Shown: positions 10,373 through 52,757, counted from the first letter of the stretch. The stretch is 64,000 nucleotides of DNA from an archaeon (GCA_043797265.1 JAZDPV010000012.1:32001-96000), one strand, 5' to 3'. Numbers and translations: made by a program. Notes: generated by a model from the letters alone, not told the origin.

Positions 10373-10678
10373 TCAATCATCTCCCAAAATTTCTTCTCCA
10401 TTTCCAACGCGTCTATACCTCACTTCTAAAGTAGCAGGAAACTTTGTATCCCCAATATCAGAAACATGAGAATAAACATCCCCCCAAGATGACCTAAATA
10501 TTTTTGGCCTCGCGAAAATCACAACAACATCCATCCCGGTCATCCGTTTATAATAAGAATCACATGGACCAACAAGCTTCCCACCGGGCAAATAAAAAGA
10601 CAAACATAATTTCTCAGGACCGCCTAAAAACCCAGCCGAACCAGTCACAACAGCATCCGCACTCCTCCCTGTCACCAT
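10373..10678 (-). CDS. Hypothetical protein
   Basis: 101-aa ATG ORF divergent from aIF5B. Confidence 0.45.
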   Translation of the reverse strand: MVTGRSADAVVTGSAGFLGGPEKLCLSFYLPGGKLVGPCDSYYKRMTGMDVVVIFARPKIFRSSWGDVYSHVSDIGDTKFPATLEVRYRRVGNGEEILGDD

Positions 10679-10728
10679 GCCAAATACCCAACATCAACCT
10701 TTAAAAATAAATCTATACTCAAACATAC

Positions 10729-12462
10729 ATGACAAACATACGCCAACCAATTGTGACAGTAGCCGGCCACGTCGACCACGGAAAAACATCCATCCTCGAC
10801 AAAATTAGGGGGACCTCTATCCAGGAAACCGAAGCCGGCGGAATCACCCAGAAAATTTCCTTCACGACTCTCCCGCAAGAAAACATCCGCGAACGCGCCG
10901 GAGCAATCCTCGAAAAATTCAAAATCCCGCTCGAAATCCCCGGCCTGCTTTTCATCGACACACCCGGCCACGCCGCATTCACAAACCTCCGAAAACGTGG
11001 CGGCTCCCTCGCTGACATCGCAATCCTCGTCATCGACATCAACGACGGAATAAAACCCCAAACCGCCGAAGTCATCCAAATTCTAAAACTAAACAAAACC
11101 CCGTTCATGATCGCCCTAAACAAAATCGACAACATCTCCGGTTGGCAAAAATCCGAATCTCTGCTCTCCGCCGAATCAATAGAAAAACAAGCAACAAACG
11201 TGAAACAAAACTTCGAAGAAAAACTCTACACAATTATCGGCGCCCTCCACTCTCACGGACTAAACGCAGAAATATATTACAAAATAACAAACTTCGCGCA
11301 AAAAATCGCAATCGTCCCATGCTCCGCTAAAACAGGAGAAGGAATCCCGGAAATCCTCGCGATACTAACCGCCCTGTCCCAAAAATTCCTGAAAGAAAGA
11401 ATCAAAAACAAAGAACGGGGAAAAGGCGTAATCCTCGAAGTCAAAAAAAACGAATCAGCAAATTTCCTCGAATGCATCCTCTACGACGGCAAACTAAAAA
11501 ACACTGACGAAATCGCAATCGCGTCAATGGACGGCACCCCGATAATAACAAAAATCCGAAACATCCAGGAAGCCAAACCGCTAAACAAAGGATTCGAAAC
11601 CAAAAAAGAAGTCGAAGCAGCGACGGGAATAAAATTGCAAATAACATCCAAAGAAGAAATCCTCCCCGGAATGCCCTTCCAAATAATAAACAACAACCTC
11701 GAAGAAATAACAAGAGAATTCAAAAAAGAAATCTCCCAGGAAATAAAAACCAGCAAAACCGGAATCATAGTCAAAGCCGACTCGCTCGGCTCTCTCGAGG
11801 CACTGCTCACACTCCTCAGACAAAAACAAATAAAAGTCATAAGAGCCGGAATCGGCCCGATAACAAAAAAAGACATCTACGCGGCAAACACGCTCCCGGA
11901 AGAAAACAAAATAATTTTAGGATTCAACATCAACCTAGCCAAAGACTCCCAAATACACGAAACAAAAAAAATCAAAATCCTCACAAATCCCGTCGTCTAC
12001 AAGCTAATCGAAAACATAGAAGAATTCAAAAAAGAAAAAGAAAAAGAAATCGAACGAAAAAAATTGGAAGAACTCCCGACAATCTGCAAAATAACCACGC
12101 TCAATTTCGTCTTCAGAAATTCCAACCCTGCAGTATTCGGAATCCACGTATCCGGCGGCAAACTAAAAAAAAGCGAACGATTCATAAATAAAGACGACAT
12201 AAAAATCGGACAAATAAAAGAAATCCAGGAAGACAAAAATAACATCCAGGAAGCGACAAAAGGAAAAGAAGTCGCAATATCAATCCCCGGACTAAACTTC
12301 GAACGTCAGCTAAAAACCAACGAACCCCTCTACACAAACCTCTCCGAAACCCAATTCCGAAAATTCAAACAACACAAAGACCTTTTATCGTCGGAAGAAA
12401 AATCAATCCTCCAAGAAATCGCCCAAATCAAACGAAGAAAAAACCCAACTTGGGGAATCTAA
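10729..12462 (+). CDS. infB: Translation initiation factor aIF5B (IF-2)
   Basis: RQPIVTVAGHVDHGKT, EAGGITQ, IDTPGHAAF, NKID, KADSLGSLEAL. Confidence 0.97.
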   Translation: MTNIRQPIVTVAGHVDHGKTSILDKIRGTSIQETEAGGITQKISFTTLPQENIRERAGAILEKFKIPLEIPGLLFIDTPGHAAFTNLRKRGGSLADIAILVIDINDGIKPQTAEVIQILKLNKTPFMIALNKIDNISGWQKSESLLSAESIEKQATNVKQNFEEKLYTIIGALHSHGLNAEIYYKITNFAQKIAIVPCSAKTGEGIPEILAILTALSQKFLKERIKNKERGKGVILEVKKNESANFLECILYDGKLKNTDEIAIASMDGTPIITKIRNIQEAKPLNKGFETKKEVEAATGIKLQITSKEEILPGMPFQIINNNLEEITREFKKEISQEIKTSKTGIIVKADSLGSLEALLTLLRQKQIKVIRAGIGPITKKDIYAANTLPEENKIILGFNINLAKDSQIHETKKIKILTNPVVYKLIENIEEFKKEKEKEIERKKLEELPTICKITTLNFVFRNSNPAVFGIHVSGGKLKKSERFINKDDIKIGQIKEIQEDKNNIQEATKGKEVAISIPGLNFERQLKTNEPLYTNLSETQFRKFKQHKDLLSSEEKSILQEIAQIKRRKNPTWGI

Positions 12463-19015: not shown

Positions 19016-21937
19016 TTACCTCAAACTCTCTTCAATCACCCCCTTCTCCTCGTCGGTAATCCCATATAACTTGTAAACCTCTTCATTAATCTCATAATCA
19101 ATATTATCAATTTGCTGTTTCAATCTTTCTTTTTCTCCGCCCGCAATTTTCTCATCGTGATATTTTTTCTGAAGTTCAAGCATTTGCTCAACAAGGGAAA
19201 TTATTTTCTTTTCTTGGGCGGAAGGGGGAAGACGAATCGGAAGATTTTTAATAAATCTGTTTTCATAAGAATAATACCCTCCTCGTAAAAATGTAGAAGT
19301 CTTCTTAATAAAAAATTCAGATAACTTACTATTTAAAATTCCCAATAAAATTTCTTTGTTATATTCGTTTTTAACTTTAAGTCCATAACCTCCAGCCACT
19401 CCAGCAGTAAAAAACCATTCTCTCGTTTTGTCTATGGTAAATGAATTTGAAAAAGCATTAAACGGAGTTAGAATCTTTTCCTTTTCAAATTCTTCTAAAT
19501 TTTGAGGTCTACTAAATGCATACCAAGATATTTTATTTTCTTTTACATCTGTTCTATCTTTAAGAAGAGATTTGTGTTTTGTTAAATATTTATAACACTT
19601 AGGGAATTCTTTCTCAAGTTCTCTTTCGGAAATTAAAGTATATTTATTTTCTTTTAAGATATAAGGGAAAATTAAATGCCTTTGAGAAGTTAATGACTTA
19701 TATTTTTTTATTTCTAATCCTTTTACTAATTTTTTCAAAATTTTTCTCTCTATTTCAATATAACCATTTTCTTCGTCGGAGAAAAATTTTCCTTCTTTTT
19801 CATGTATAATAAAAACTTTATCAGCACTAGTTATTAATCCTTGAAATATCTTTTCGCAAACATCTTCTAATTTTAAATCTACTTTATCTAATTTTTCTAA
19901 AAGATTAGAATTATTTTCACTCCCAAAGTTCCAAGTTTTACCTTCTAATTTAGCTTGAGAATAAATAATGGAATTTTGAATATCAATTTCTCCAAAAGAA
20001 GCTTTTTTCAAATCAGAAATTTTTATATAAACTAATTTACTCATTTTATCTTCTTTTGATTTTCTAAGAACATAAATTCCAGGATAAGTAATAGCACTTT
20101 CAAATACTGGCAAATCTCCAAAATCAACAATTTTATTTATAGTTGAATTGTTTAATATAAATTCTCTTAAACTTTCTCCATAATTTGCAGACATAAATTT
20201 TGAAGGCATAATAAACGAAAACAATCCTTTCTCTCTCATTATCTTTAAACTCAATTCTGTGAATAACATATAAGTATCAATATATCCTTTAGCAACATCA
20301 TATTTTTTATTTAACCATTTAACTTCTTTTGGATTAATTTCCTGAACACGAACATACGGCGGATTCCCGACGACAACATCAAAACCTCCACTTTTGAAAA
20401 CATCTGGGAATTGCGCTTTCCAATTAAAAGCCCTGTCTGAAACTTTCGCGTCGTCAATTAATGAATTCCCACATTTAATATTATTTTCAAGATGAGGCAA
20501 AAGCATCTTCCTTGTTTCCTGCGTTTCTTCATCTAAAAGTTTTAATAACAAATTCAATCTCGCAAGTTCAACCGCCTTCTCATCCAAGTCAACTCCATAA
20601 ACGCAGTTTCTCAAAATCTCAATCTTCTGCCCCAAATTTAATTTATCTATTTTCTTCCCAGAATTTTTAAATAAAGTCTTGCTCCCTTCCTCTCCATTAT
20701 TTAATTTATCTTCTATAACATTGCAAACCTCAACAAATGCTCGCGTAATAAACGAACCCGAACCACACGCAGGGTCTAAAATATTCACTTCCAAAATTTC
20801 ATCAATCGTCTTATCTTTAATATATTCATAAACCGTATTCTTAACGATGTAATCCACAATATAAGCGGGAGTATAATAAATTCCCATTTTCTTTCTTTTC
20901 CCCGACGATGAATCCAGTTTCACCCGCTTTTCTGTTCCCGCCAAAATAGTCCCCAAATATTGCTCATAAATCCCTCCAAATAAATCTCCGGGAATCTGGT
21001 CAAATAAATATCTCTCTTGATTTCCCTCGCTCCCAAAATATAATGCAACTATAACTTTTCTTAAAACCTCGTCAGAAAAAGCTCCCTCCTTTTCCAAAAG
21101 TCCTTTCTCAAATAATTTAGAGTCATACTTTTTATTAAATTCTTCAAATTGTTCAAGTAAATAAGGAAATAACTGGAACCTTACTACTTGTTGCCTCACA
21201 TTACTTTCTAAACTTTTAAGAAAATTCATTGGCTCCAACCCCCTATCTTCAACGCTTCTTATAAAAATCAACCTGTCAATTAAAATCTGAACAACCTCGT
21301 CGATAACCTCTTGACTAAGATAATTCTTTTTTGCCTTTAATTCTTTTGAAAGCCAACCTCTAATATTCAATAAATCATTTAAAATATTTTCATCAATCGG
21401 TTTGTTAATTTTTTCATCTTTAGCCGAAAGCAATTTATCTATCTCCCTATTCTCAAAACTCTCCCTCGACAAAAGCCAAAGCAAATCAAACTTCTCAACA
21501 AAATCTTTCGCCTCAAGAATAAAATATGCTCCGTCCTTCTTTAATAAATTTCTATCTATAAGTTTTACATTCGAAAGTGCATGATAAACTCTAAGATGTT
21601 TAAAATTTGTAAGAACAGCAAATTTAATTTTTCTATGATAAGCATACGAAACCGCCTGTCTACCCTCTTCTTCCAACAAATGAACGCTAGTCTTCTTTGC
21701 TTCAATAACAAGTTTTTCTTGGTTCCCAATTCTCAAAATATAATCCGCTCGCCCCTTCAAAATCCTGGTTTCCTTAGAAATCTCTTCCCTTTTCCATCCC
21801 AAAGCTTCAAACAACGGCTCAATAAACTGAAACTTAATATCTTCCTCAGGCATAGAATCAATTTGACTTTTTGGATAAGACTCAAACTTCTCAACCAGCC
21901 TCCCAACCTCTTCCTTCGCCTTCTCTTTATCGCTCAT
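19016..21937 (-). CDS. Type IIG (Eco57I-like) restriction-modification enzyme: HSDR_N-like nuclease + N6-adenine MTase + TRD
   Basis: ADY..VIEAKK nuclease motif, GIYYTP, LDPACGSGSF, VGNPPY, TaqI-C-like ILNSK...YENRFIKNLPI. Confidence 0.9.
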   Translation of the reverse strand: MSDKEKAKEEVGRLVEKFESYPKSQIDSMPEEDIKFQFIEPLFEALGWKREEISKETRILKGRADYILRIGNQEKLVIEAKKTSVHLLEEEGRQAVSYAYHRKIKFAVLTNFKHLRVYHALSNVKLIDRNLLKKDGAYFILEAKDFVEKFDLLWLLSRESFENREIDKLLSAKDEKINKPIDENILNDLLNIRGWLSKELKAKKNYLSQEVIDEVVQILIDRLIFIRSVEDRGLEPMNFLKSLESNVRQQVVRFQLFPYLLEQFEEFNKKYDSKLFEKGLLEKEGAFSDEVLRKVIVALYFGSEGNQERYLFDQIPGDLFGGIYEQYLGTILAGTEKRVKLDSSSGKRKKMGIYYTPAYIVDYIVKNTVYEYIKDKTIDEILEVNILDPACGSGSFITRAFVEVCNVIEDKLNNGEEGSKTLFKNSGKKIDKLNLGQKIEILRNCVYGVDLDEKAVELARLNLLLKLLDEETQETRKMLLPHLENNIKCGNSLIDDAKVSDRAFNWKAQFPDVFKSGGFDVVVGNPPYVRVQEINPKEVKWLNKKYDVAKGYIDTYMLFTELSLKIMREKGLFSFIMPSKFMSANYGESLREFILNNSTINKIVDFGDLPVFESAITYPGIYVLRKSKEDKMSKLVYIKISDLKKASFGEIDIQNSIIYSQAKLEGKTWNFGSENNSNLLEKLDKVDLKLEDVCEKIFQGLITSADKVFIIHEKEGKFFSDEENGYIEIERKILKKLVKGLEIKKYKSLTSQRHLIFPYILKENKYTLISERELEKEFPKCYKYLTKHKSLLKDRTDVKENKISWYAFSRPQNLEEFEKEKILTPFNAFSNSFTIDKTREWFFTAGVAGGYGLKVKNEYNKEILLGILNSKLSEFFIKKTSTFLRGGYYSYENRFIKNLPIRLPPSAQEKKIISLVEQMLELQKKYHDEKIAGGEKERLKQQIDNIDYEINEEVYKLYGITDEEKGVIEESLR

Positions 21938-22023
21938 CACACTCCCTCACACCATTCACATTTCCCACTCGGACACTCCCCCTCCAACAACTCCAACGCC
22001 CCCCTCCAAACCTTCTCCTCCAT
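21937..22023 (-). pseudogene. Relic duplicate of the PD-(D/E)XK gene 3' end
   Basis: MEEKVWRGALELLEGECPSGKCEWCEGV* vs active AEDEWKSAIKLLNSDCPTKSCEWCEGR*. Confidence 0.8.
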
Positions 22024-22679
22024 CATCTCCCCTCGCACCACTCACACGATTTAGTTGGACAATCAGAGTTTAATAATTTTATTGCACTCTTCCATTCATC
22101 CTCTGCAACTTCAACATCAACCTTCATCTTCACCAACTCGCTATCAAAAATAACTTCTCCCGTCGACAAAACTTCCTTCGGCACATAAAACAAAAGAAAA
22201 AAATAATCCTCCGTCTCGTAGCCGTTCTTCCTCAAAAGAAAATTATAAACATTCTGTTGCAATCTATAATGCTCCGCCGTGTCGTCTTTGACCGCATAAC
22301 CCCTCGTCTTGTAATCCAACACAATCAACTTCTTCCCTTTCATCAAAATATTATCAACCGCCCCGTGCAACTCATTCCCATTCTTGTCCGTCCACGAAAT
22401 CCCCTTAAAATTATTCTGCCAAACCTTCATCTTCTCCGAATCATCAAACAACTTCATATCCTCGCAATGACAATTGTCGCACAACTCCGGCGGCAACAAC
22501 CCCTTGTCCCGAAACTTGTCAAAATGAATTTTCAAAATTCTATCCATCCCCGACGGCAGCGACGGAAAAACTCCGCTCGGCCGCTTCCAAACTTTATGTT
22601 GCGTCAGCCAAAAGCATCTCGGACACTCCTTAAACAAATTCAAAACCGACGGCGACAACTTATATCCCATTCCAAACAA
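22023..22679 (-). CDS. PD-(D/E)XK nuclease (AddB/Cas4-like, Fe-S ligands)
   Basis: LSPS..ECPRCFW, GAVD..LDYKT, QQNVY, C-terminal CEWC. Confidence 0.82.
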   Translation of the reverse strand: MFGMGYKLSPSVLNLFKECPRCFWLTQHKVWKRPSGVFPSLPSGMDRILKIHFDKFRDKGLLPPELCDNCHCEDMKLFDDSEKMKVWQNNFKGISWTDKNGNELHGAVDNILMKGKKLIVLDYKTRGYAVKDDTAEHYRLQQNVYNFLLRKNGYETEDYFFLLFYVPKEVLSTGEVIFDSELVKMKVDVEVAEDEWKSAIKLLNSDCPTKSCEWCEGR

Positions 22680-28227: not shown

Positions 28228-28268
28228 TAATCTCTCCCCCTACAATTTACACAACCCGCCAAGTCACA

Positions 28269-28325
28269 CTTCCAGCGAAGCGGACTTCCAGCGAAGCGGA
28301 CTTCCAACTTCCAGCGAAGCGGACT
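28269..28325 (+). repeat. 16-mer tandem repeat CTTCCA-GCGAAGC-GGA
   Basis: cttccagcgaagcgga x2, cttccaa, cttccagcgaagcgga; same unit at 38469 and 43983. Confidence 0.9.
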
Positions 28326-37840: not shown

Positions 37841-40731
37841 ATGACATCAATCAATGAAACAGAAAAAGAAATTTTAACCTTCTGGAAAAAGGATAAGACA
37901 TTTGAAAAATCACTAAAGAAAACCGAAAAAGGAAAACCCTATATCTTCTACGACGGCCCGCCATTCGCAACCGGTCTCCCGCACTACGGACACCTCCTCG
38001 CCTCGACGCTGAAAGACGTCTTCCCAAGATTCTTCACGATGCAAAGCAGATACGTCAAACGAAACTGGGGATGGGACTGCCACGGACTCCCCGTCGAATC
38101 CATCGCTGAAAAAGAACTCGGCATAAACTCAAAAAACGAAATCGAAAAAATGGGCGTCAAAAAATTCAACGACTTCTGCCGAACTAAAGTCCTAACCTAC
38201 GCCGACGACTGGAAAAAATACATCGACAGAATCGGACGATGGGTCGACTTCGACGACGGCTACAAAACAATGGACACCAACTACATCGAATCGGTCTGGT
38301 GGGCATTCAAGCAACTCTACGAAAAAGGATATTTATACGAAGGCGAAAAAATTCTGCTCTACTGCCCCCGATGTTCAACCCCGCTATCAAAATCCGAAAT
38401 CGCAATGGACAACTCTTACAAAATAACAAAGGACACAACCGTCGTCGTAAAATTCCGCCTTCTGCCTACTTCTAGCGAAGCGGACTACCAGCGAAGCGGA
38501 CTACCAGCGAAGCGGACTTAAATTTTTCCGAAGGAAAAACTTACGCCCTCGCTTGGACAACAACCCCATGGACACTTCCCGGAAACCTCGCCCTCGCAGT
38601 CAATCCAAAAATGACATACGCATACATCAAAGACAAAAACGACGGCAACACCTATCTCCTCGCAAAAGAACTAATACAAAAATTCTACAAATCCAAAGAC
38701 GAATACACAATCACCAAAGAAATCAAAGGCAAAGAACTCGAAGGACAAAAATACGAACCACTCTACCCCTACTTCAAAGACAACCCAAACTCTTTCAAAT
38801 TCCTGCTCGGAGATTTCGTAACAGCCGAAGACGGAACCGGAATCGTCCACGTATCTCCAATGTTCGGCGAAGACGACAACACTATATGTCGAAAATATGA
38901 AATCCCCTTAGTAAACCCCGTCGACGAAAACGGGAACTTCACAAAACTCGTAACCGACTACGCAAACAAATACATCCACGACACAAACGAGCAAATCGCA
39001 GCCGACCTCAAAAAAAATAACAAAGCAATCATGATAAAAAAAACGGAACACGAATACCCGTTCTGCTACCGATGCGACACAAAACTAATGTATCGCGCGC
39101 TCCCCGCTTGGTTCGTCGACATCCAAAAAATCAAAGACAAACTTCTAAAACTAAACCTCAAAATAAATTGGTTCCCAAAAAATCTCAAAGAAGGCCGAAT
39201 GCAACACAACATATCAACCGCCCCCGACTGGAACATCACACGAAACAGATACTGGGCAACCGCAATCCCAATTTGGAAATCACCCTCGGGAAAAATAAAA
39301 GTTCTCGGCTCAATCAAAGAATTAGAAAAACTAACCCATAAAAAAATAACAGACTTGCATAAAGACACCTTGGATAAAATAAAATTATTCCAAGACGGAG
39401 AAACCTACACAAGAATTCCCGAAGTCCTTGACTGCTGGTTCGAATCCGGCGCAATGACCTTCGCACAATTCCATTATCCATTTGAAAACAAAAAATATTT
39501 CGACGAACACTTCCCGGCTCAATTTGTCGTCGAATACATCGCACAAACCCGAGCATGGTTCTACTATATGATCGTCCTCTCCGCAATCCTCTTCGACAAA
39601 ATCCCTTTCGAAAACGTCCTGACAACCGGAACAATACTCGCGGAAGACGGACAAAAAATGTCAAAGTCCCTGAAAAATTACCCAGACCCTCTCGAAGTCA
39701 TCAACAAATACGGGGCAGACACTCTGAGATTCTACCTCCTCCAATCTCCGCTAATGAACGCCGAAAACTTCAACTTCTCGGAAAAAGGCCTCGACGAAAC
39801 ATACAAGCGAATCACAACCCTGCTCTACAACATCTCAAACTTCTATAAAGAATACCAGCAAGACGACGACAAAAATTATCAAAAATCAGACAACCCAATG
39901 GACAAATGGATAATCTCACGAACCGAAAACCTAAACACAACCATCCAAAAAAACCTCGAAAAATACGACACAATAAAAGCCTGCGCGCTCACAAAAAAAT
40001 TCATAGACGACCTCTCGACATGGTACATCAGAAACTCCCGCGACAGATTCAACGACGACGACAAATCCGCAAGAAAAACATTAAGATACGTTCTTGAAAA
40101 AACAACAAAAATCCTCGCACCAATAATCCCATTCGCCACAGAAAAAATATACCAAGATATGAACGGCAAAAAAGAATCAGTCCACCTTCAAGACTACCCC
40201 AAGCCAAATCAAAAACTAATAAACAAAAACCTCGAACAAGAAATGGAAATCGCAAGAGAAATAGTTTCAATCGCGCTAAAAGAAAGAGACAAAGCCCAAA
40301 TCGGAATCAAGTGGCCACTCGCAAAAGCGCAAATCAAGGCACCAATAAAATTGACAAAAGAGCTCGCAGAAATAATAAAAAAAGAACTCAACATAAAAGA
40401 AATTGAAATTAAAAACTTCAAAACCAATGAAACAATAACCGCAATCCTCGACACAAAAATAACTCCCGAACTCGAAGCCGAAGGATTTGCAAGAGAAATC
40501 TCAAGAAAAATCCAGGCAGCGCGAAAAAAAGCAGGACTATCAAAACCCGATTCAATCGAACTCGAAATAATATCAGAGTTCAGCGACAAAATAAAATCGC
40601 AACTCGACTTCATTCAAGAAAGAGTCGGAGCAAAAACAATCTCCCTCGACAAATCCAACAAGAAATTTAATCACTTTGAAGAAGGAAAAATAAAAGACAA
40701 ACCCTTCACAATAAAATTCAACAAAATTTAA
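37841..40731 (+). CDS. ileS: Isoleucyl-tRNA synthetase, frameshifted at a 16-bp tandem repeat (38469-38516)
   Basis: Frame A: DGPPFATGLPHYGH, GWDCHGLP. Frame B from 38518: WTTTPWTLPGN, GTGIVH, DWNITRNRYW, DCWFESG, KMSKS. Confidence 0.92.
38469..38516 (+). repeat. 16-mer tandem repeat x3 inside ileS
   Basis: cttctagcgaagcgga ctaccagcgaagcgga ctaccagcgaagcgga. Confidence 0.92.
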
Positions 40732-47088: not shown

Positions 47089-47161
47089 GCCTCCGTAGCT
47101 CAGTTGACAGAGCATTTGCTTCGTAAGCAAAGGGTCACGGGTTTGAATCCCGTCGGAGGCT
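47089..47161 (+). tRNA. tRNA-Thr(CGT)
   Basis: Acceptor GCCTCCG/CGGAGGC, anticodon arm TTTGC-TTCGTAA-GCAAA, T-loop TTTGAAT (atypical T56). Confidence 0.9.
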
Positions 47162-47274
47162 TAGATTCAAACCTGTGACGTCACGGGTGAGCAATTCGCT
47201 TCGAGCGAAAACTATTCAAAAAATTATTTTCGCGAAATGCAAATTGCGAATAAAAGAATCCCGTCGGAGGCTTA
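47162..47274 (+). mobile_element. tRNA T-arm-associated ~110-bp element (copy at tRNA-Thr)
   Basis: Inverted T-arm copy 47164-47179, direct gtcacgggt 47180-47188, conserved core, repeated tRNA 3' end gaatcccgtcggaggctta 47256-47274. Confidence 0.8.
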
Positions 47275-47279
47275 ATGTC

Positions 47280-47382
47280 AAATTTAATTTTTAGCAGGTT
47301 CAGGCAAGGCGCGAGGTTGCGTGGCGTATACTAATACGCGAGCGGAATCGCAACGAAGCATCAACCGCTAAAAATTAAATTT
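47280..47382. mobile_element. MITE-like element with ~20-bp terminal inverted repeats
   Basis: aaatttaatttttagcaggtt ... aaccgctaaaaattaaattt around a GC-rich hairpin interior; right end overlaps the copA stop. Confidence 0.65.
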
Positions 47383-49525
47383 TAACTCGTCGAAGCAAAT
47401 TCGCATTCGTAACAACCGTTATCGACGACAAGGCCATCGCCAACTCCGCAACAACCGGATTCAAAACCCCAGCCACCGCCAACGGTATCGCAACCACATT
47501 ATAAAAAAACGCCCAAAACAAATTCTGTTTAATCTTCCCAAAAGTCGCATTCGACAAATTAATCGCCTCAACAACTCCCGTCAAATTCCCCTTCGCCAAA
47601 ACAATATCCCCAGATTCAATCGCAATATCCGTCCCCGTCCCAATCGCAATCCCAACATTCGCCTGCTTCAAAGCCGGAGCATCATTTATCCCATCACCAA
47701 CAAAAGCAACCATCCCTCGCCTCTGCAATTCCTCAACCTTCTTCGCTTTATCCTCAGGCATAACTCCAGCAATCACCTCACTAATCCCAACCTGCCGAGC
47801 AATCGCCCGAGCAGTAATCTCATTATCCCCAGTAATCATAACAGTCCTAAACCCTCCATCATTCAACCGAGCAATCGCCTCCCGAGAATCCTCCTTAATC
47901 GCATCAGCAACACCAATCACTCCCAACACTTTTTTAGTTTCAACAACAACCATCACACTCTCACCATTCTCAGCAAAACCCTTAACAACCTTAGCATAAC
48001 TCCCAAGCACAATCTTCCTATCCTTCATCAAAGCCTCATTCCCAACAATATACTTCTTCCCCCCAATGGTCCCCTCAAGCCCCTTCCCCCGAATAATCTT
48101 AAACTTACTTACAGCCCGATACTTCTTAAGCCCCGCCCGTTTAACAATCGCCTTAGCCAATGGATGCTCCGATAACTTCTCCAAACTCCCAGCAATCTCA
48201 AACAACTTCTTTTCATCCTTCGCAAAAACCTCAACAACCTCCGGCTCGCCCTTAGTAATCGTCCCAGTCTTATCAAAAACAACAATCTTAACTTCCTTCA
48301 TCGTCTGAATCGCCTCGCCCTTCCTAATCAAAATCCCCCGCTTAGCTCCCATCCCAGAACCAACCATCAAAGAAATCGGAACAGCCAGGCCCAAAGAACA
48401 CGGACACGCAATAACCAGAACCGCAATCCCAACCCCAATCGCCCGACCAATCTCAGCACCGACGACAAAATACCAAGTCAAAAAAGTAAACAAACTAAGC
48501 ACCAAAATAATCGGAACAAAAATCCCCGTCACACTATCCGCCAACTTCTGAATCGGAACCTTCGTCCCTTGCGCCTCCTCAACCAACTTAATAATATGCG
48601 CCAAGAAAGTATCCTTCCCAACCTTCGAAGCTTTCACATGCAAAATTCCATCCTGATTCAAAGTAGCTCCAATAACCAAATCTTCAACTCCTTTCTCGAC
48701 AGGCAAACTCTCCCCGCTAATCATCGACTCATCAACAGCACTCGCACCCTTAACAACAACCCCATCCGTCGGAATCTTCTCACCAGGCTTAATAATCATA
48801 ACGTCCCCAATCTTAACTTCAGCAATATCAATCTCAATCTCTTTACCTCCTCGCAAAACCCTCGCCTTCTTCGCACCAAGCTCCAACAACTTCTTAATCT
48901 CCGACGTCGCTCGCCCCTTAGCCTTCGCCTCGATAAACTTCCCCGTAATAAAAATTGTCATAATCATTCCAGACACACCAGCAAAACTCGTCACATCAAT
49001 CCAAAAACTAAGAATCCCTGTCAAATAAGCAACAACCGTCCCAAGACCAATCAAAGAATCCATCGTAAATTGCAACTTCCAAAAACTCCTTGCTCCAGAC
49101 TTTATCGTATGAAAACCAAAAATAAAAATAATTGGAAAACTCAAAATTAACATCCAAGGTGTCATCCATTTCATCGGAACAAGAGCAACGCCAAACAAAG
49201 GTTCAAAATACATAATCGCTATAATAAAAATAGTCAAAAACCAAGTCCCAACCAACTTAACCTTCCAACTAGAAAGCTCATCCTTCTTAGAATCCAAAAC
49301 CCCAGAATCCCGAATACCGGAATTCCGAAGCTTAAACCCCGCATCCTTCACAGCCTTTCCAATCTGCTCAGCAGAAACACCGTCGCCAACTTCAGCAAAA
49401 GCCTTCCCACTAACCGGATTAACACTAACATTCCGAGCACCAATTTTCTCAAGCTCCGCCGTCATTATCTTCGAACACGAAGCACAATGCATTCCTTCAA
49501 TGTCTAACTTTATTTTTTTTGCCAT
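47375..49525 (-). CDS. copA: Copper-translocating P1B-type ATPase
   Basis: [44 protein letters not shown]. Confidence 0.93.
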
Positions 49526-49581
49526 TTATTTTTCCTCCAATTTATTTATGGTACTCTTCGAGCTTTTTATTTTTCTCCAAT

Positions 49582-49788
49582 TTATTTTTTTTGTATTTGT
49601 TTAATTAACAAAACTATAATCAATACCAAGATAACCACAACTAACAAACCAATTATCCAACCATAGAACATCCCGCCAAAGCCATAATTACCAGACATCA
49701 TCCCATACATACCATAATCATCGGCATCAGCCGAAACCAAAGTAAATAAGGAAACCAATACAAAAAAGCTAGACATTATTTTTTTCAT
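49582..49788 (-). CDS. Small membrane protein (Met/Gly-rich, copper cluster)
   Basis: Signal peptide, YGMYGMMSG, one TM. Confidence 0.6.
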   Translation of the reverse strand: MKKIMSSFFVLVSLFTLVSADADDYGMYGMMSGNYGFGGMFYGWIIGLLVVVILVLIIVLLIKQIQKK

Positions 49789-49864
49789 CTTATTTTTCTC
49801 CAGATTTAGTTAGTTAATTATAGTGAACAAAAGATATATATCTTCCGCCCCCTAAAATCGATAC

Positions 49865-50026
49865 CTATCTCACCACCCTCCTATTAATAGTATTAAATTT
49901 TCTCATACAAAGTCTACAACAAAACTCCTCGAGATTATCCGTTAGCATCCCACACATCCGACACCCTCCACCAACTCCAGAAAAAACTTCCTTCTTACAA
50001 ACCGGACAACTCATAACATCTCCCAT
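49865..50026 (-). CDS. Small Cys-rich metal-binding protein
   Basis: CPVC...CRMC...CCRLC; starts just after the stop of 50028-51467. Confidence 0.55.
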   Translation of the reverse strand: MGDVMSCPVCKKEVFSGVGGGCRMCGMLTDNLEEFCCRLCMRKFNTINRRVVR

Positions 50027-50027
50027 T

Positions 50028-51467
50028 TTATCCTCCACACCCACAGCCACCAGCGCCACAAGTTCCACCAGCGTCGGAAATAACCTCGGCCTCTTTAATC
50101 TGACTCGCCGAAGCAACTCCATCATCAGTCACAATAAACGTCCCCGGAATCATTCCCATCCAACAACTCCATCGAACCGTCCCAACCTTATCCGGCACAA
50201 ACTCCACAACATTCATCCCCTTCTTCAACTTAGCATCCAAACCATAGTCCCGAACAATTATCTCATTATTACAACCCGTCAATTCCTTAACATCAATCTC
50301 CCACCGAACCGGCACGCCCTTCTTCAAACTAAAACTATCCGGCGTCCAACCATATCTCGTAACTTCCATTTTAATTACCTGAACATCTCCATCATAAACA
50401 ACTCCAGATAAACTAGCAATAGAATTACCACTAGCTCCCATAACGCTAGCAGTAATCGCCTCAAATGAGTAATCACTCCCCAAAACAACCAACCCTCTAT
50501 TCAGCATAACCAAACCAAGAATCAAAACAAGAACCGCCGCAATTTTCAAAATTTTCTTCGTCGCATTTTTGCTAATCACCGACGTCAAACTGCCAAATCC
50601 AATCAGTACAGGCAACGTCCCAAGACTAAAAGCTCCCAAAGAAAAAAACCCAGTCCAAAAACTCCCAGTCCCAGCCGCATACAAATACAAAGCCTGCAAC
50701 GGACCACAAGCAATAAACAAACCACCAAGTATACCTGTCATAAACGGCGCCTTGTAATAACCCTTCGAATCATGCGTCGTCTTTGCTGCCCACCTCGTCA
50801 AAAATTTCGGATTAAAAGAAAATCTCCTAAAAAAACCAACGCCTAACATACTCAACGCATAAAATATCATGAACACCCCAGCAAAAATCGCAATCCCCGC
50901 ACGAAGCCCAACACTAAAAGAAAACACCCCACCAATCAAACCAAAAATCCCGCCAATCACAGCATAAGAAATTGTCTTTGCTCCACCATAAACAAAATGC
51001 TGTTTGAATCCTTTATGCCCACGACTCGCATTACTAGTAGTATACCCGACGACAAACGCCCCACACATCGAAACGCAATGAAACCCTGTCAATAACCCAA
51101 CAAAAAATAATATAATAATCCCAGAACTCTCGCCCACCGCCGGAATCGAAAAACCCGAAGACGAAACCCATCCATAAACAAAATAAGCAAAAACCAATAG
51201 AACCCCAATCATAAACCAAAACCCAATCCTGTCTCCAGTATTCCCACTCTTACTCTCTTCCTTTAATCCACCAACCCCAAACTCACCACCCTCCTCAATT
51301 AATTTAACAATCTCTTTCTCAGAAATTTTATCCTCATCAAACTCAACCTCAACCTCTCCCATAGAAAAACTAGCATCAACTTTTATAACCCGCCCCTTCA
51401 ATTTCATCTCAATAAGATTTGCACATGAATTGCAAGTCATCCCATCAACTCTAAAAACTTTTTTCAT
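50028..51467 (-). CDS. HMA + DsbD_2/TauE-like membrane + cupredoxin-like protein
   Basis: GMTCNSC, GFHCVSMCG, IACGPLQ, C-terminal GCNN..WSCWMGM. Confidence 0.85.
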   Translation of the reverse strand: MKKVFRVDGMTCNSCANLIEMKLKGRVIKVDASFSMGEVEVEFDEDKISEKEIVKLIEEGGEFGVGGLKEESKSGNTGDRIGFWFMIGVLLVFAYFVYGWVSSSGFSIPAVGESSGIIILFFVGLLTGFHCVSMCGAFVVGYTTSNASRGHKGFKQHFVYGGAKTISYAVIGGIFGLIGGVFSFSVGLRAGIAIFAGVFMIFYALSMLGVGFFRRFSFNPKFLTRWAAKTTHDSKGYYKAPFMTGILGGLFIACGPLQALYLYAAGTGSFWTGFFSLGAFSLGTLPVLIGFGSLTSVISKNATKKILKIAAVLVLILGLVMLNRGLVVLGSDYSFEAITASVMGASGNSIASLSGVVYDGDVQVIKMEVTRYGWTPDSFSLKKGVPVRWEIDVKELTGCNNEIIVRDYGLDAKLKKGMNVVEFVPDKVGTVRWSCWMGMIPGTFIVTDDGVASASQIKEAEVISDAGGTCGAGGCGCGG

Positions 51468-51519
51468 AAAGATTTCAAAATAACTTTTTATTTAACCGCT
51501 TCGCTGAAACTAGTTTCAA

Positions 51520-51999
51520 TCACTTCACTAAAACAATAATATTATTCATCCCTCGACGCTTCCTCTCAACAATTCCCTTCGACTCCAACCTATCCATCAT
51601 CCTCGTAATCTTAACCTTCCCAACGCCCAACTCTTCCATTAAACTCTTTTGAAAAACCGCGCCATTCTCCCTCTCTAAAATCCCAACAACCTCTCGCTCA
51701 CTCTTATCTAACCCAGACAAATCAATCTTTTTCTTCCGAACCCTCTCTTTGATTTTCTTTACGATAATCTTCTCATTCTCCCTCGCAAAAATAAAAAACA
51801 ATCCTATCAGCAAAACCAAGCCCGCGACCGCCAAACTCAAATTCGTCTGCAATGAAATCGTATCATACATTTCACAATCACTCCCATGATTACAGGTCTG
51901 CCCAACAATCTTATTCAACCCAGAATTGAACAACAAGATTATAACAACTATCAAAACCGCAACTCCTACAATCAAGAATCCAACATTTCTATTTTTCAT
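51520..51999 (-). CDS. Membrane-anchored wHTH (MarR-like) regulator
   Basis: Two TMs with CxxxxxC loop; FQKSL..KVKITRMMDRLESKGIVERKRRGMNN. Confidence 0.75.
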   Translation of the reverse strand: MKNRNVGFLIVGVAVLIVVIILLFNSGLNKIVGQTCNHGSDCEMYDTISLQTNLSLAVAGLVLLIGLFFIFARENEKIIVKKIKERVRKKKIDLSGLDKSEREVVGILERENGAVFQKSLMEELGVGKVKITRMMDRLESKGIVERKRRGMNNIIVLVK

Positions 52000-52061
52000 A
52001 AATCTATAACCGTTCCCTTCTATATAAAACTTTATAAGTAATTCCAAATTTACAAATACAC

Positions 52062-52145
52062 GTGGGGGTGCCGGAGTGGCCAAACGGGCAGGACTTAAGA
52101 TCCTGTGGCTTATGCCTTTCGGGGGTTCGAATCCTCCCCCCCACA
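52062..52145 (+). tRNA. tRNA-Leu(TAA)
   Basis: GTGGGGG/CCCCCAC acceptor, CAGGA-CTTAAGA-TCCTG, long variable arm, GGTTCGAATCC. Confidence 0.92.
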
Positions 52146-52436
52146 TATGATTTGGCAAGATATTATCCTAACATTAGCAAACCTCATCTTTGGCTACGCC
52201 CTCATCCCTCAAGTATACCACGGCTTCAAGTACAAAAAACCACGATAACCATCCAGACATCGCTCCTCACAACAATCGGGCTTTTCGCATCTTCCGTCGC
52301 ATTCCTCTCTTTCGATTTAATTTTCTCCGGAATTATCTGCACATTCAACGCGACAATGTGGGCACTCCTCCTAATCCAAAAACTTATCTATCATTAATCC
52401 CAAACTTTAAAAGCCGGATTCTTCTAACGAAAACAT

Positions 52437-52512
52437 AGCGGGGTAGAGCAGCCTGGTCAGCTCGCGAGGCCCATAACCTCGAGGTCACGTGGTTCAAATC
52501 CCGTCCCCGCTA
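52437..52512 (+). tRNA. tRNA-Met(CAT), probably initiator (A1:U72)
   Basis: AGCGGGG/CCCCGCT acceptor, CGAGG-CCCATAA-CCTCG, GGTTCAAATCC. Confidence 0.88.
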
Positions 52513-52726
52513 TTGATTTGAAACACGTGACTCACGTGGCGAGTCGATTCGCTTTGAGCAAAACTAAATCTTAAAAATTTTGCGAAATGCAAATCGCGAG
52601 TAAAATCCCGTCCCCGCTATTGATTTGAAACACGTGACTCACGTGGCGAGTCGATTCGCTTTGAGCAAAACTAAATCTTAAAAATTTTGCGAAATGCAAA
52701 TCGCGAGTAAAATCCCGTCCCCGCTA
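52513..52726 (+). mobile_element. tRNA T-arm-associated element, two identical tandem 107-bp units
   Basis: Units 52513-52619 and 52620-52726, each ending in the tRNA 3' end aaatcccgtccccgcta; core homologous to 47189-47255. Confidence 0.85.
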
Positions 52727-52757
52727 TTCTTATAAACTCCCTCAATTTATTTCTACA

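What the first reader, a model, noticed from the sequence alone, without database searches (positions are those of the whole stretch)
47089..52728. tRNA T-arm-copying mini-element behind two different tRNAs
Seen: tRNA-Thr (47089-47161) and tRNA-Met (52437-52512) are each followed by the same four-part unit. (i) An inverted copy of that tRNA's own variable loop/T-arm: gattcaaacctgtgac for Thr, gatttgaaacacgtgac for Met, each with 1 mismatch. (ii) A direct copy of the 5' T-stem (gtcacgggt / tcacgtgg). (iii) A shared ~65-nt core (gagcaattcgcttcgagcgaaaacta...ttttcgcgaaatgcaaattgcgaataaaa vs gagtcgattcgctttgagcaaaacta...ttttgcgaaatgcaaatcgcgagtaaaa) whose stems covary: CAATT/AATTG vs CGATT/AATCG, and GCGAAAA/TTTTCGC vs GCAAAA/TTTTGC. 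(iv) A repeat of the tRNA 3' end. The core sits where the T-loop TT(C) would be. The flanks are tRNA-specific, while the core is common. At Met the unit is tandemly doubled (107-bp period). Established: tyrosine integrases duplicate tRNA 3' ends at T-loop att sites, but those islands are kb-sized and do not carry an antisense T-arm. Inference: this is either a non-autonomous element that templates its flanks from the target tRNA, or a cis switch in the pre-tRNA trailer, where the antisense segment pairs with the T-arm or with the adjacent direct copy.
Basis: partly seen in the sequence, partly recalled or inferred. Interest (0 to 1): 0.9.

Follow-up and report, generated by a model that had tools for sequence, protein, structure and literature searches.

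The report
Strand-polar hairpin element invading tRNA loops
A 60-base hairpin-shaped piece of mobile DNA repeatedly lands in the loops of tRNA genes of a tiny-genome archaeon, always on the same DNA strand, and each landing leaves a locally copied patch that keeps the tRNA gene intact.

Summary
The ~62-66-nt core has 21 copies in this 625-kb archaeal genome; 18 of 21 lie within 150 nt of a tRNA (2.2% expected). It occurs in 31 of 49 genomes of the genus and in a second genus of the family.

The core is a covarying hairpin. It replaces about 3 nt in a loop, most often the T-loop. The usual unit is [intact gene end ..z] - X' (inverted copy, 8-17 nt) - I (direct copy, 8 nt) - core - E (repeat of the target up to z).

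Near-identical cores sit at unrelated loci, flanks are always local, and orthologous empty sites exist. A simple 61-nt insertion in the 16S rRNA gene is absent from 21 of 21 aligned relatives. So the core moves and the flanks are made on site.

The core's forward strand lies on the C-rich strand in 21 of 21 copies of this extremely GC-skewed genome, whatever the tRNA's orientation. That points to a DNA-strand process, probably tied to replication. It argues against a pre-tRNA switch, an intron or a classical integrase island.

No dedicated enzyme was identified. The flap/snap-back model I propose is inference.

The parts
47089..47161 (+). Intact tRNA-Thr(CGU); its T-loop is the target
   Evidence: ARAGORN; Rfam tRNA 68.1 bits
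47145..47163 (+). E, first copy: target from T-loop nt 57 to 2 nt past the discriminator (part of the intact gene)
   Evidence: Direct repeat of 47256-47274, 19 of 19 identical
47164..47179 (+). X': inverted copy of the uninterrupted T-arm 5' strand plus T-loop (nt 46-61), 1 mismatch
   Evidence: Read directly. It forms a perfect-centre palindrome with I. The DNA fold of the unit shows an X'/I hairpin.
47180..47187 (+). I: 8-nt direct copy of the target (nt 46-53) abutting the core's 5' end
   Evidence: Family-wide, I+gap is 8 nt in 21 of 38, 9 in 11, 7 in 5 and 10 in 1.
47188..47252 (+). Core hairpin element (TGAGCAATTCGC...GCAAATTGCGAA + TA tail; AAA follows to 47255)
   Evidence: CM hit at G000:C12:79186-79253, E 1.2e-15. 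65 of 68 identical to the copy behind tRNA-Arg(TCG) on another contig. Covarying structure.
47256..47274 (+). E, second copy: repeat of the tRNA 3' end; T-loop nt 54-56 are missing between I and E
   Evidence: 3 nt lost
52437..52512 (+). Intact tRNA-Met(CAU)
   Evidence: ARAGORN; Rfam 56.2 bits
52515..52621 (+). Unit 1 at tRNA-Met: X' 52515-52531, I 52532-52539, core 52540-52602, E 52603-52621
   Evidence: CM hit. The orthologous sites in L061 and L079 are empty: '...CCCCGCTAT|tcttataaac'.
52622..52728 (+). Unit 2 at tRNA-Met, identical to unit 1: X' 52622-52638, I 52639-52646, core 52647-52709, E 52710-52728
   Evidence: TRF period 107, 100% matches; cores 66 of 66 identical

Best explanation
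Both loci belong to one family of small, non-autonomous hairpin elements. Each is about 62-66 nt: 5'-YGAGCAATTCGC..loop..GCAAATTGCGAR-YA-3'. The family is mobile in a genus-level clade of small-genome archaea.

SHOWN
1. The core alone is the travelling unit. The flanks X', I and E are always copies of the local target.
2. The core replaces about 3 nt in the loop of a hairpin-forming stretch. This is most often the T-loop after nt 53. It also occurs in D-, anticodon- and variable-loop positions, in a 16S rRNA loop, in the end-hairpin of another repeat, and in the last 20-45 nt of protein genes.
3. Where the target is essential, an intact copy of the gene end is always kept. The usual order is [..a..z] X'=rc(a..b), I=(a..c, 8 nt), core, E=(d..z).
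4. X' reproduces the uninterrupted target.
5. The core's forward strand lies on the C- and A-rich strand of the chromosome, regardless of gene orientation.

INFERRED
6. The hairpin enters one DNA strand only. By the usual rule that leading strands are G/T-rich, this would be the lagging-polarity strand. The result is a heteroduplex over an uninterrupted template.
7. Nick-translation or Okazaki-type synthesis arrives from the 5' side. It melts the last ~8 bp before the looped-out hairpin. That makes a 5' flap (8-nt tail plus hairpin) that flap nuclease cannot thread.
8. Displacement synthesis runs on over the uninterrupted template and so makes the intact gene end up to z.
9. After branch migration, the displaced 3' tail snaps back on itself and is extended to the flap base. 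This makes X'. It is then ligated to the flap's 5' end.
10. Where the insertion is harmless, as in the 16S loop, the nick is simply sealed and a plain insertion results.

The enzyme that first inserts the hairpin is unknown.

The confidence given (0.6) is for points 1-5 taken together with a DNA-strand, replication- or repair-coupled origin of the flanks. I would put the specific flap/snap-back sequence of points 6-10 at about 0.3.
For: Copy number and tRNA association:
- 21 CM hits in the own genome
- 18 of 21 within 150 nt of a tRNA, against 2.2% of bases
- 62 of 91 analysed cores across the genus within 150 nt of a tRNA

Mobility of the core alone:
- Thr-cgt vs Arg-tcg copy 65 of 68 identical; Ile-u1 vs Gly-ccc 61 of 66, with unrelated flanks
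- three tandem units behind tRNA-Ile have the same flanks but different cores
- empty tRNA-Met sites in L061 and L079
- a 61-nt plain insertion in the 16S gene, absent in 21 of 21 aligned relatives, one of them with 98%-identical flank

Fixed anatomy:
- I+gap: 8 nt in 21 of 38, 9 in 11, 7 in 5, 10 in 1
- target nt lost: 3 in 19 of 40
- tail: 2 nt in 21 of 40

Other points:
- The same layout occurs at protein-gene ends (L027, L041, L135, L114, L206) and in mirror image at tRNA 5' ends (Leu-tag, Leu-caa).
- Core-less fold-back units at tRNA-Met of G043 (L058) show that the duplication chemistry does not need the core.
- Hairpin: 94.9% of cells paired, 11 of 14 pairs with double changes, 0 of 500 shuffles reach this.

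Strand polarity:
- The forward strand is C-rich in 21 of 21 own copies, while tRNA sense is C-rich in 11 and G-rich in 8.
- In other genomes, with flank |skew|>0.2 the count is 25 vs 4, and with >0.3 it is 9 vs 0.
- In C-rich-strand coordinates the intact copy is 5' of the core for 16 of 19 tRNA-linked own copies.
Against: - No inserting enzyme was found. Y1 transposase is in 12 of 49 and reverse transcriptase in 19 of 49 genus genomes. Neither tracks the core: G049 and G050 have many cores and no Y1.
- The assignment 'C-rich = lagging strand' rests on the general rule. No origin or skew switch lies inside any of the 18 contigs.
- 3 of the 19 tRNA-linked own copies have the intact copy on the other side of the core (Arg-tcg downstream, Asn, Pro*). 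Some units lack X' or have longer I: L030, L215, Trp*.
- The skew link is weaker in weakly skewed relatives: 60 vs 34 overall.
- By nearest-neighbour energies the reverse strand folds slightly better. So which strand is the active one is open.
- The 8-nt rule could equally mark an enzyme's cut or a primer. UvrC was sought for this reason and not found.
- No reads, circles or transcripts could be examined.
- Genomes of one genus are not independent samples.
Confidence: 0.6

Rival explanations
1. The core is a PATE/REPIN-like derivative mobilised by an HUH Y1 transposase (IS200/IS605 or RAYT type). The transposase excises and inserts single-stranded hairpin DNA at the replication fork. The flanking duplications are host repair of those insertions.
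For: - The core is a hairpin with conserved ends and a variable loop.
- The plain 16S insertion has no target duplication.
- There is a strict strand bias, as is established for IS608-type elements (recalled).
- A Y1_Tnp gene is present in the own genome, and 11 of 12 Y1-positive genus genomes carry the core 13-mer.
Against: - There is no conserved tetranucleotide next to the core's ends (flanks listed).
- Y1 is missing from 20 of 31 core-positive genomes, including the core-rich G049 and G050.
- The ends of the IS200-like copies show no similarity to the core: no hit at E<=1 in 31 loci (sequences read).
- The Y1 genes are multi-copy IS in G043 and G047, not single-copy RAYTs flanked by the repeat.
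- The forward strand sits on the C-rich strand. Under the usual rule this is not the lagging-strand template, unless the reverse strand is the active one.
Confidence: 0.15
2. Retro-mobility: a core RNA is copied by a reverse transcriptase at a nick in the target (target-primed). This would give variable-length target duplications and template-switch products.
For: - The target repeats E have variable length, 11-60 nt.
- The junction is polar, with the core's 3' end joined precisely to the target.
- An RVT_1 gene is present in the own genome.
Against: - RT was found in only 19 of 49 genus genomes and not in core-rich G049.
- Orientation follows the chromosome strand, not transcription of the host gene.
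- X' copies target DNA, and E extends into untranscribed downstream DNA, up to +45.
- No A-tail was seen.
Confidence: 0.07
3. Mini integrative circles (~110 nt) carry a tRNA 3' end as attP and are integrated by a tyrosine recombinase at the T-arm, as for archaeal and bacterial genomic islands.
For: - There is a direct repeat of the tRNA 3' end.
- Tandem arrays occur.
- Three Phage_integrase-family genes are in the genome.
- Big elements do leave tRNA fragments in archaea (abstracts of PMC3293823 and PMC9897764).
Against: - Each circle would need the flanks of its own tRNA, yet near-identical cores sit at different tRNAs.
- Insertions occur in D-, anticodon- and variable-loop positions, at protein-gene ends and in 16S, without any common att sequence.
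- Three nt are lost at the junction.
- Repeat length is variable.
- The strand polarity is not expected for conservative recombination.
Confidence: 0.05
4. The core is a mobile bulge-helix-bulge type intron or intervening sequence of stable RNAs, acting at the RNA level.
For: - It sits in loops of tRNA and rRNA genes, once exactly after nt 37, the canonical intron site (L026, L147).
- A full-length tRNA-Pro paralog with the core in its T-loop has paired changes in the T-stem and acceptor stem.
- Intron 'transposition' has been proposed for Thermoproteales (search listing; details recalled).
Against: - The consensus ends in a closed helix (Y-R pair, tandem G.A). It does not show two 3-nt bulges 4 bp apart.
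- Removing the core in silico gives a detectable tRNA at 1 of 21 sites.
- Three loop nt are missing, so splicing would not restore a T-loop.
- An intact gene copy is always adjacent.
- 16 of 62 tRNA-linked cores are antisense to the tRNA.
- The core also occurs at protein-gene ends and in intergenic DNA.
Confidence: 0.04
5. The unit is a cis-acting switch in the pre-tRNA trailer. The antisense segment X' pairs with the T-arm or with the adjacent direct copy and so controls maturation.
For: X' is complementary to the T-arm. The unit folds into X'/I and core hairpins.
Against: - Units lie upstream of, or antisense to, the tRNA in 18 of 62 cases.
- They are absent at orthologous loci of close relatives.
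- The same structure is made from protein-gene ends.
- X' decays in older units (L027, L041).
- Orientation follows strand skew, not the tRNA.
Confidence: 0.02

Closest known systems
REP/REPIN repeats with RAYT transposases, and PATEs of IS200/IS605 (bacteria; single-strand HUH transposition)
   Same: - Short non-autonomous hairpins with conserved arms and a variable loop.
- Tens of copies per genome.
- No target duplication in the plain insertion.
- Strand-biased.
- They sometimes insert into other hairpins.
   Different: - No conserved target or cleavage tetranucleotide.
- No cognate single-copy RAYT, and no IS with matching ends, was found.
- Targets are loops of tRNA genes rather than extragenic space.
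- The unique flank signature (inverted copy + 8-nt direct copy + variable repeat that regenerates the gene end) is not part of the REPIN/PATE descriptions I know (recalled; search listings show none).
tRNA-targeting integrative elements (tyrosine integrases; tRNA gene fragments in archaeal genomes)
   Same: - A direct repeat of the tRNA 3' end starts in the T-loop.
- The intact tRNA is preserved.
- Tandem arrays occur.
   Different: - The element is about 60 nt with no gene.
- Flanks are local rather than carried.
- An inverted copy is present.
- About 3 nt are lost.
- It is also found at tRNA 5' ends, protein-gene ends and in 16S.
- It is strand-polar.
Non-canonical archaeal tRNA/rRNA introns (BHB) and proposed intron transposition
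   Same: Related short inserts lie at different loop positions of different tRNAs, and in rRNA, of an archaeon.
   Different: - No BHB motif.
- The inserts lie in redundant partial copies.
- Both orientations relative to the transcript occur.
- The strand rule is at the DNA level.
Hairpin-flap and fold-back (snap-back) templated duplications known from repeat expansion and alternative end-joining in other organisms (established mechanisms, recalled)
   Same: - Tandem duplication with a short inverted templated insert at the junction.
- 0-3 nt of untemplated or microhomologous bases.
- A structured 5' flap that resists flap nuclease.
   Different: Here the outcome is stereotyped, with a fixed 8 nt. 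It recurs at dozens of sites and is coupled to one specific mobile hairpin. None of the enzymes has been shown in these archaea.
Hairpin-targeting mobile DNA (IS1111-attC group, group IIC introns at terminators, integron attC sites)
   Same: The target seems to be recognised as a stem-loop rather than as a sequence.
   Different: Those elements encode or depend on identified enzymes. They do not regenerate the target by duplication.

Membership tests
Tyrosine-integrase tRNA island | The element carries (or is served by) an integrase and an attP identical to the tRNA 3' part | tested here: not met
   The element is 62-66 nt with no ORF. Near-identical cores carry different, local flanks.
Tyrosine-integrase tRNA island | Direct repeat of the tRNA 3' end at both junctions | tested here: met
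   E repeats of 11-60 nt
MITE (DDE-transposon derivative) | Fixed-length target-site duplication on both sides | tested here: not met
   The 16S insertion has none. Elsewhere an 8-nt copy lies on the 5' side only, and a variable repeat on the 3' side.
MITE (DDE-transposon derivative) | A longer autonomous relative with the same ends | tested here: not met
   In the 40 2.5-kb windows I fetched, out of 100 exact 5'-end matches, every 5' end has its 3' end within about 95 nt.
IS200/IS605-derived PATE or REPIN | Conserved cleavage/target tetranucleotide beside the hairpin | tested here: not met
   The 4 nt left and right of the core differ from site to site.
IS200/IS605-derived PATE or REPIN | Cognate Y1 (HUH) transposase with matching end hairpins, or a RAYT flanked by the repeat | tested here: not met
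   Y1 is in 12 of 49 genomes. No core-like sequence occurs in the 31 Y1-, integrase- and RT-gene loci (L151-L181) scanned at E<=1.
IS200/IS605-derived PATE or REPIN | Orientation bias with respect to replication | tested here: inconclusive
   The strand bias is strict (21 of 21). Which strand is leading was not determined.
Archaeal BHB intron | Bulge-helix-bulge at the exon-intron boundaries | tested here: not met
   The consensus ends in a Y-R pair plus tandem G.A. The boundaries are at the helix base.
Archaeal BHB intron | Removal restores a functional RNA | tested here: not met
   A tRNA is detected after in-silico removal at 1 of 21 sites. 3 loop nt are missing in 19 of 40 units.
Archaeal BHB intron | Spliced in vivo | not testable with these tools
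   No sequencing run was listed.
cis-regulatory RNA element of tRNA operons | Fixed position and strand relative to the transcript; conserved at orthologous loci | tested here: not met
   18 of 62 tRNA-linked cores are upstream of or antisense to the tRNA. Empty orthologous sites exist.
Rfam families | Match at the gathering score | tested here: not met
   Only the three tRNAs match in the window. There is no family at the core in 9 further loci.

The most novel reading that the evidence does not exclude
This is a previously undescribed way for DNA to move. A free ~60-nt hairpin is taken into the nascent lagging strand at exposed hairpin loops, with no transposase of its own. It is then fixed by hairpin-flap ligation. 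In essential genes this automatically rebuilds the gene end. It leaves the signature [gene end]-inverted copy-8-nt copy-hairpin-repeat. Such an element would be a parasite of Okazaki-fragment maturation. It would also be a steady source of tRNA-gene duplication, fragmentation and inversion in ultra-small archaeal genomes.
Probability: 0.25. Interest if true: 0.9.

Novelty: new variant of a known kind. Interest (0 to 1): 0.82.

Why it matters
- It shows how a selfish element can colonise the most constrained genes of a 0.6-Mb genome without killing the host. Each fixed insertion comes with a locally made spare of the gene end.
- It offers a concrete DNA-level source for partial, duplicated, interrupted and inverted tRNA genes in archaea. 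That bears on the long-standing question of how disrupted tRNA genes arise.
- The stereotyped junction (8 nt, 3 nt, an inverted copy of the uninterrupted target) and the absolute strand polarity are a natural record of replication and repair chemistry in uncultivated DPANN-like archaea, where no genetics exists.
- Practically, these units confuse tRNA annotation. They are also good markers for strain-level comparison.

Tried and rejected
- Rfam at gathering score on the window and on 9 loci found only tRNAs and 16S.
- In-silico removal of the core, to look for hidden tRNAs, gave a tRNA at 1 of 21 sites (Pro*).
I searched the 5' end alone instead and read 40 windows. I found no long copy.
- Candidate enzymes did not track the core: Y1_Tnp, Phage_integrase, TnpB (none), RVT_1. 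IS200-like ends are unlike the core.
- The UvrC idea for the 8-nt distance failed: no UvrC, and no UvrB over the cut-off, in this 83%-complete genome.
- A conservative Xer/integron-like exchange, a telomere-resolvase-like hairpin closure, a standard staggered-cut transposition and a target-primed reverse transcription were each worked through on paper. Each fails to give an X' that copies the uninterrupted target next to an 8-nt direct copy.
- Single-sequence folding energies are weak evidence (z -1.5 to -2.5, one at 0). I rely on covariation instead.
- My first palindrome finder crashed and was rewritten.
- The automatic Y/R boundary finder misplaced some boundaries and skipped 5 of 96 cores. 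The counts are therefore given as k of n detected.
- In the 16S comparison, 8 of 29 fetched relatives lacked my right-hand anchor and were left out.
- No sequencing run was listed for the stretch, and no RNA holder was listed.
- The literature searches (listings only) showed no description of such an element. For PMC3293823 and PMC9897764 I read the outline and abstract. For PMC3733652 I read passages. Supplements were not opened.

Full report
CHECK OF THE OBSERVATION

The window holds three tRNA genes: Thr-CGU at 47089-47161, Leu-UAA at 52062-52145 and Met-CAU at 52437-52512.

Behind tRNA-Thr the sequence reads as follows:
- tRNA 3' end GAATCCCGTCGGAGGCTTA, 47145-47163
- GATTCAAACCTGTGAC, 47164-47179. 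This is the reverse complement of T-arm nt 46-61 with one mismatch.
- GTCACGGG, 47180-47187
- a 65-nt core, 47188-47252, followed by AAA
- GAATCCCGTCGGAGGCTTA again, 47256-47274

Behind tRNA-Met the same four parts occur twice. Tandem Repeats Finder gives period 107, 2.2 copies and 100% matches for 52496-52728.

HOW MANY, AND WHERE

The window is part of contig C12 of a 624,983-base genome in 18 contigs, 83% complete. The genome carries an archaeal 16S gene.

Copies in the own genome:
- An HMM built from the copies finds 21 cores. A covariance model also finds 21.
- 18 of the 21 lie within 150 nt of one of the 37 tRNA genes. Only 2.2% of the genome lies that close to a tRNA (p about 2e-27).
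- The other three are a copy inside the 16S rRNA gene, a copy in an unidentified structured region on C14, and the third unit of the tRNA-Ile array (289 nt from the tRNA).

Distribution beyond this genome:
- The exact 13-mer of the 5' end occurs 100 times in 31 of 49 genomes of the genus. The reversed control pattern occurs 3 times.
- In an even sample of the order, the model hits 11 of 151 genomes. All hits are in the same family: 10 of 105 there, and 0 of 45 in eight other families.
- One genome of another genus (G144) has 22 copies with the same architecture.

THE CORE

46 distinct copies align to 5'-YGAGCAATTCGCTTYGAG-(stem, A/T-rich loop)-CGAAATGCAAATTGCGAR-YA. The structure is a long imperfect hairpin.
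- The terminal Y-R pair is U-A in 22 and C-G in 21 sequences.
- 11 of 14 pairs show compensatory changes.
- 94.9% of cells are paired, against 82.7% in shuffles. 0 of 500 shuffles reach this value.
- Sliding the partners by 1-3 columns drops pairing to 23-49%.
- Two tandem G.A/A.G steps and a C.A mismatch are conserved, read from the alignment.
- Nearest-neighbour folding of single copies is only modestly better than shuffles. It is slightly better for the reverse strand.
- No Rfam family matches.

THE UNIT

I read about 130 loci. One layout recurs:

[target ..a..c n d..z] - X' = reverse complement of a..b (8-17 nt) - 0-3 nt - I = a..c - core - E = d..z

A script run over 96 distinct cores could analyse 91 of them. 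Five were skipped by my boundary finder. It gave these measures:
- Distance from the palindrome centre to the core: 8 nt in 21, 9 in 11, 7 in 5 and 10 in 1, out of 38 detected.
- Target nt missing between I and E: 3 in 19 of 40. Otherwise 0 in 2, 1 in 4, 2 in 7, 4 in 3, 5 in 1 and 6 in 4.
- Tail after the closing R: 2 nt in 21 of 40.

In T-loop insertions the commonest junctions are after nt 53 and before nt 57. z ranges from +2 to +45 past the gene end.

X' always reproduces the uninterrupted target, for example the T-loop TTTGAATC at tRNA-Thr. It never includes core sequence.

The insertion point is not confined to T-loops:
- variable-loop/T-stem border (Thr-GGU)
- anticodon loop after nt 37 (tRNA-Arg-TCG of G019 and G044)
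- T-stem 3' strand (Pro)
- D-loop (both tRNA-Leu; mirror-image units upstream of the gene)
- the last 20-45 nt of protein genes (L027, L135, L041, L114, L206)
- the end-hairpin of another repeat (L116, L118, L119)
- a 16S rRNA loop

Whole interrupted paralogs sit next to an intact gene for Pro, Trp, Arg, Phe and Cys.

Other short inserts occupy the same slot:
- a 27-nt one upstream of tRNA-Val, tRNA-Arg and tRNA-Ser
- a 33-nt one, three times behind tRNA-Leu-AAG
- a related 'C' variant behind tRNA-Met of many relatives

THE CORE MOVES AND THE FLANKS ARE LOCAL

- The cores behind tRNA-Thr-CGU and tRNA-Arg-TCG are 65 of 68 identical. Those at tRNA-Ile and tRNA-Gly-CCC are 61 of 66 identical. In both cases nothing in the flanks is shared.
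- The three units behind tRNA-Ile share flanks but carry different cores.
- tRNA-Met lies next to the RNase HII gene in most of the genus (the protein was found in 46 of 49 genomes; 30 loci were read).
  - In G058 and G041 the tRNA is followed directly by TCTTATAAAC. That is the sequence which follows the last repeat in this genome. So X', I, core and E were all added together.
  - G009 has an independent unit built from its own, different T-stem.
  - G043 has two tandem units with the inverted and direct copies but no core.
- In the 16S gene the core is a plain 61-nt insertion with no duplication. It is absent from all 21 relatives I could align, including one with 98%-identical flank. 8 of the 29 fetched relatives were not alignable with my anchors.

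THE STRAND RULE

This genome is extraordinarily skewed.
- Every contig has a uniform GC skew of -0.29 to -0.53 or +0.32 to +0.44. No sign change occurs inside any contig.
- The window itself runs at -0.32 to -0.52.
- Long ORFs lie on both strands. A greedy count gives 294 with a G-rich and 230 with a C-rich coding strand. So the skew is not simply gene orientation.

All 21 cores have their forward strand on the C- and A-rich strand. The tRNA sense strand is C-rich for 11 of the neighbouring genes and G-rich for 8.

This one rule explains the variety of layouts:
- tRNAs on the C-rich strand carry units downstream (10 of 11).
- tRNAs on the G-rich strand carry mirror-image units or interrupted paralogs upstream (6 of 8).
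- Read along the C-rich strand, the intact copy is 5' of the core in 16 of 19.

In other genomes the bias rises with local skew: 60 vs 34 overall, 25 vs 4 for |skew|>0.2 and 9 vs 0 for >0.3. These genomes are related and the loci are not independent.

WHAT IT IS

The data fit a small non-autonomous mobile hairpin whose insertion is a DNA-strand event. The alternatives fare as follows.

A pre-tRNA switch does not fit:
- The strand rule is against it.
- Upstream and antisense units are against it (18 of 62 tRNA-linked cores).
- Empty orthologous sites are against it.
- Protein-gene targets are against it.

A BHB intron does not fit:
- The consensus ends are at the base of a closed helix.
- Removing the core restores a detectable tRNA at 1 of 21 sites.
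- Three loop nt are missing.
- An intact copy is always adjacent.

A classical integrase element does not fit:
- The flanks are not carried with the core.
- There is no common att sequence.

Dedicated enzymes could not be assigned:
- A Y1 transposase, three tyrosine recombinases and a reverse transcriptase are present in this genome. TnpB is not.
- In the genus, Y1 occurs in 12 of 49 genomes and RT in 19 of 49. Core-rich genomes such as G049 lack both.
- The IS200-like copies have unrelated ends.

HOW IT PROBABLY WORKS (INFERENCE)

Four facts constrain any model:
1. X' copies an uninterrupted target.
2. X' ends, and I begins, at the same coordinate, 8 nt from the core.
3. The repeat E..z has variable length but always passes the gene end.
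4. Polarity is fixed with respect to the chromosome strand.

I propose the following sequence:
1. The hairpin first sits in one strand only, over an uninterrupted template.
2. Synthesis approaches from the 5' side by nick translation. It leaves a shrinking duplex between the nick and the looped-out hairpin.
3. At about 8 bp this duplex melts. That gives a 5' flap with an 8-nt tail followed by a stable hairpin, which flap endonuclease cannot thread.
4. Synthesis continues by displacement over the uninterrupted template. It thereby writes a new, intact gene end up to z.
5. When the old strand re-anneals, the new 3' tail (a..z) is displaced. It folds back on itself and is extended to the junction at a. 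This writes X'.
6. The tail is sealed to the flap's 5' end.

Where the interruption is harmless the nick is simply sealed, as in 16S. In essential genes only the duplicated outcome survives. That explains why z lies just beyond the gene end.

If the G/T-rich strand is the leading strand (the general rule, not shown here), the forward core lies in the lagging-polarity strand. That fits an Okazaki-maturation setting.

The model does not say who inserts the hairpin. It does not account for the three own units with the intact copy on the other side, or for units without X' (L030) or with long I (L215). An enzyme cutting 8 nt from the hairpin, or a unit-length primer, would explain the 8 nt equally well. 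UvrC, which cuts at the 8th bond, was not found.

COMPARISON WITH KNOWN SYSTEMS

It resembles REPIN/PATE-type hairpin repeats in size, shape, copy number, strand bias and lack of a target duplication. It fails their defining tests: no conserved flanking tetranucleotide, and no cognate Y1 gene or matching IS ends. It shares with integrase islands only the repeat of the tRNA 3' end.

The flank signature and the regeneration of the gene end were not in any listing returned by six full-text searches. Of the papers returned, I read two abstracts and passages of one paper. I therefore file it as a new variant of the small hairpin mobile elements. The mechanism may prove to be new in kind.

LIMITS

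- All genomes are metagenome-assembled drafts.
- Tandem copy numbers are unverified, because no run was listed.
- Leading and lagging strands were not assigned experimentally.
- The counts across relatives are not independent.

Noticed in passing
window 1-64000 and all 18 contigs of the genome: GC skew is extreme and uniform. The window runs at -0.32 to -0.52. Every contig is at +/-0.29 to 0.53, with no sign change inside any contig. AT skew has the opposite sign. Long ORFs lie on both strands (294 vs 230 by a greedy count). This is far beyond usual replication skews.
   Followed up: partly
window 47275-47385: A GC-rich segment of about 75 nt (AGGTTCAGGCAAGGCGCGAGG...CATCAACC) is enclosed by an AT-rich inverted repeat (AAATTTAATTTTTAGC / GCTAAAAATTAAATTT). 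A similar element lies beside the tRNA cluster of G004 (L060). A comparable AT-rich clamp surrounds the core-bearing region at G000:C14:~21990-22120. It may be a processed small RNA. No Rfam family matches at gathering score.
   Followed up: no
G000:C14:139-203 (locus L081): The 16S rRNA gene carries a 61-nt core insertion in a variable loop near its 5' end. The insertion is absent from 21 aligned relatives. Whether it stays in the mature rRNA is unknown.
   Followed up: partly
G000:C2:~10650-10760; C5:~19935-20000 and ~20150-20205; C16:~40480-40510: A second insert family of about 27 nt (AAAGTAACATCG.AGATGTTTCATGGA) lies between a copy of the tRNA 5' end and its inverted copy. It is upstream of tRNA-Val-GAC (two tandem units), tRNA-Arg-TCG and tRNA-Ser-GGA.
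   Followed up: no
G000:C18:81340-81440; C16:~40545-40585: A third insert family of 33 nt (TACCCCTTCGGGGCACGAGGACCTGCGAGCAGG) occurs three times in tandem in the T-loop slot behind tRNA-Leu-AAG. It occurs once inside a tRNA-Ser-GGA paralog.
   Followed up: no
loci L051-L080 (tRNA-Met / RNase HII neighbourhood in the genus): The orientation of tRNA-Met relative to the RNase HII gene flips among genomes of the genus. In some genomes tRNA-Leu-UAA and tRNA-Thr-CGU are rearranged around it. The inverted copies left by the units could promote such inversions.
   Followed up: no
G000:C18:8700-8790: A full-length tRNA-Pro(UGG) paralog has the core in its T-loop. It differs from the intact neighbour by paired changes in the T-stem (CCCGG/CCGGG vs CCCTG/CAGGG) and in the first acceptor pair (G-C vs A-T). 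This is unexpected for a dead copy.
   Followed up: partly
G000:C2:12620-12700: tRNA-Thr-UGU is followed by an inverted copy of its T-loop (GAGTCAAAC) with no core or repeat. It may be a remnant of a lost unit. Relatives G002 and G050 have full units at this tRNA.
   Followed up: no
G043 and G047 (loci L156-L181): IS200-like elements (Y1 transposase only, about 560-720 bp) are multi-copy in two genomes of the genus: 10 and 5 matches. Some matches have in-frame stops. A repeat derived from their end-hairpin is itself a target of the core.
   Followed up: partly
window 28268-28306 and 38474-38518: Two perfect 16-nt tandem repeats share the motif AGCGAAGCGG: ACTTCCAGCGAAGCGG x2.4 and AGCGAAGCGGACTACC x2.8.
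   Followed up: no
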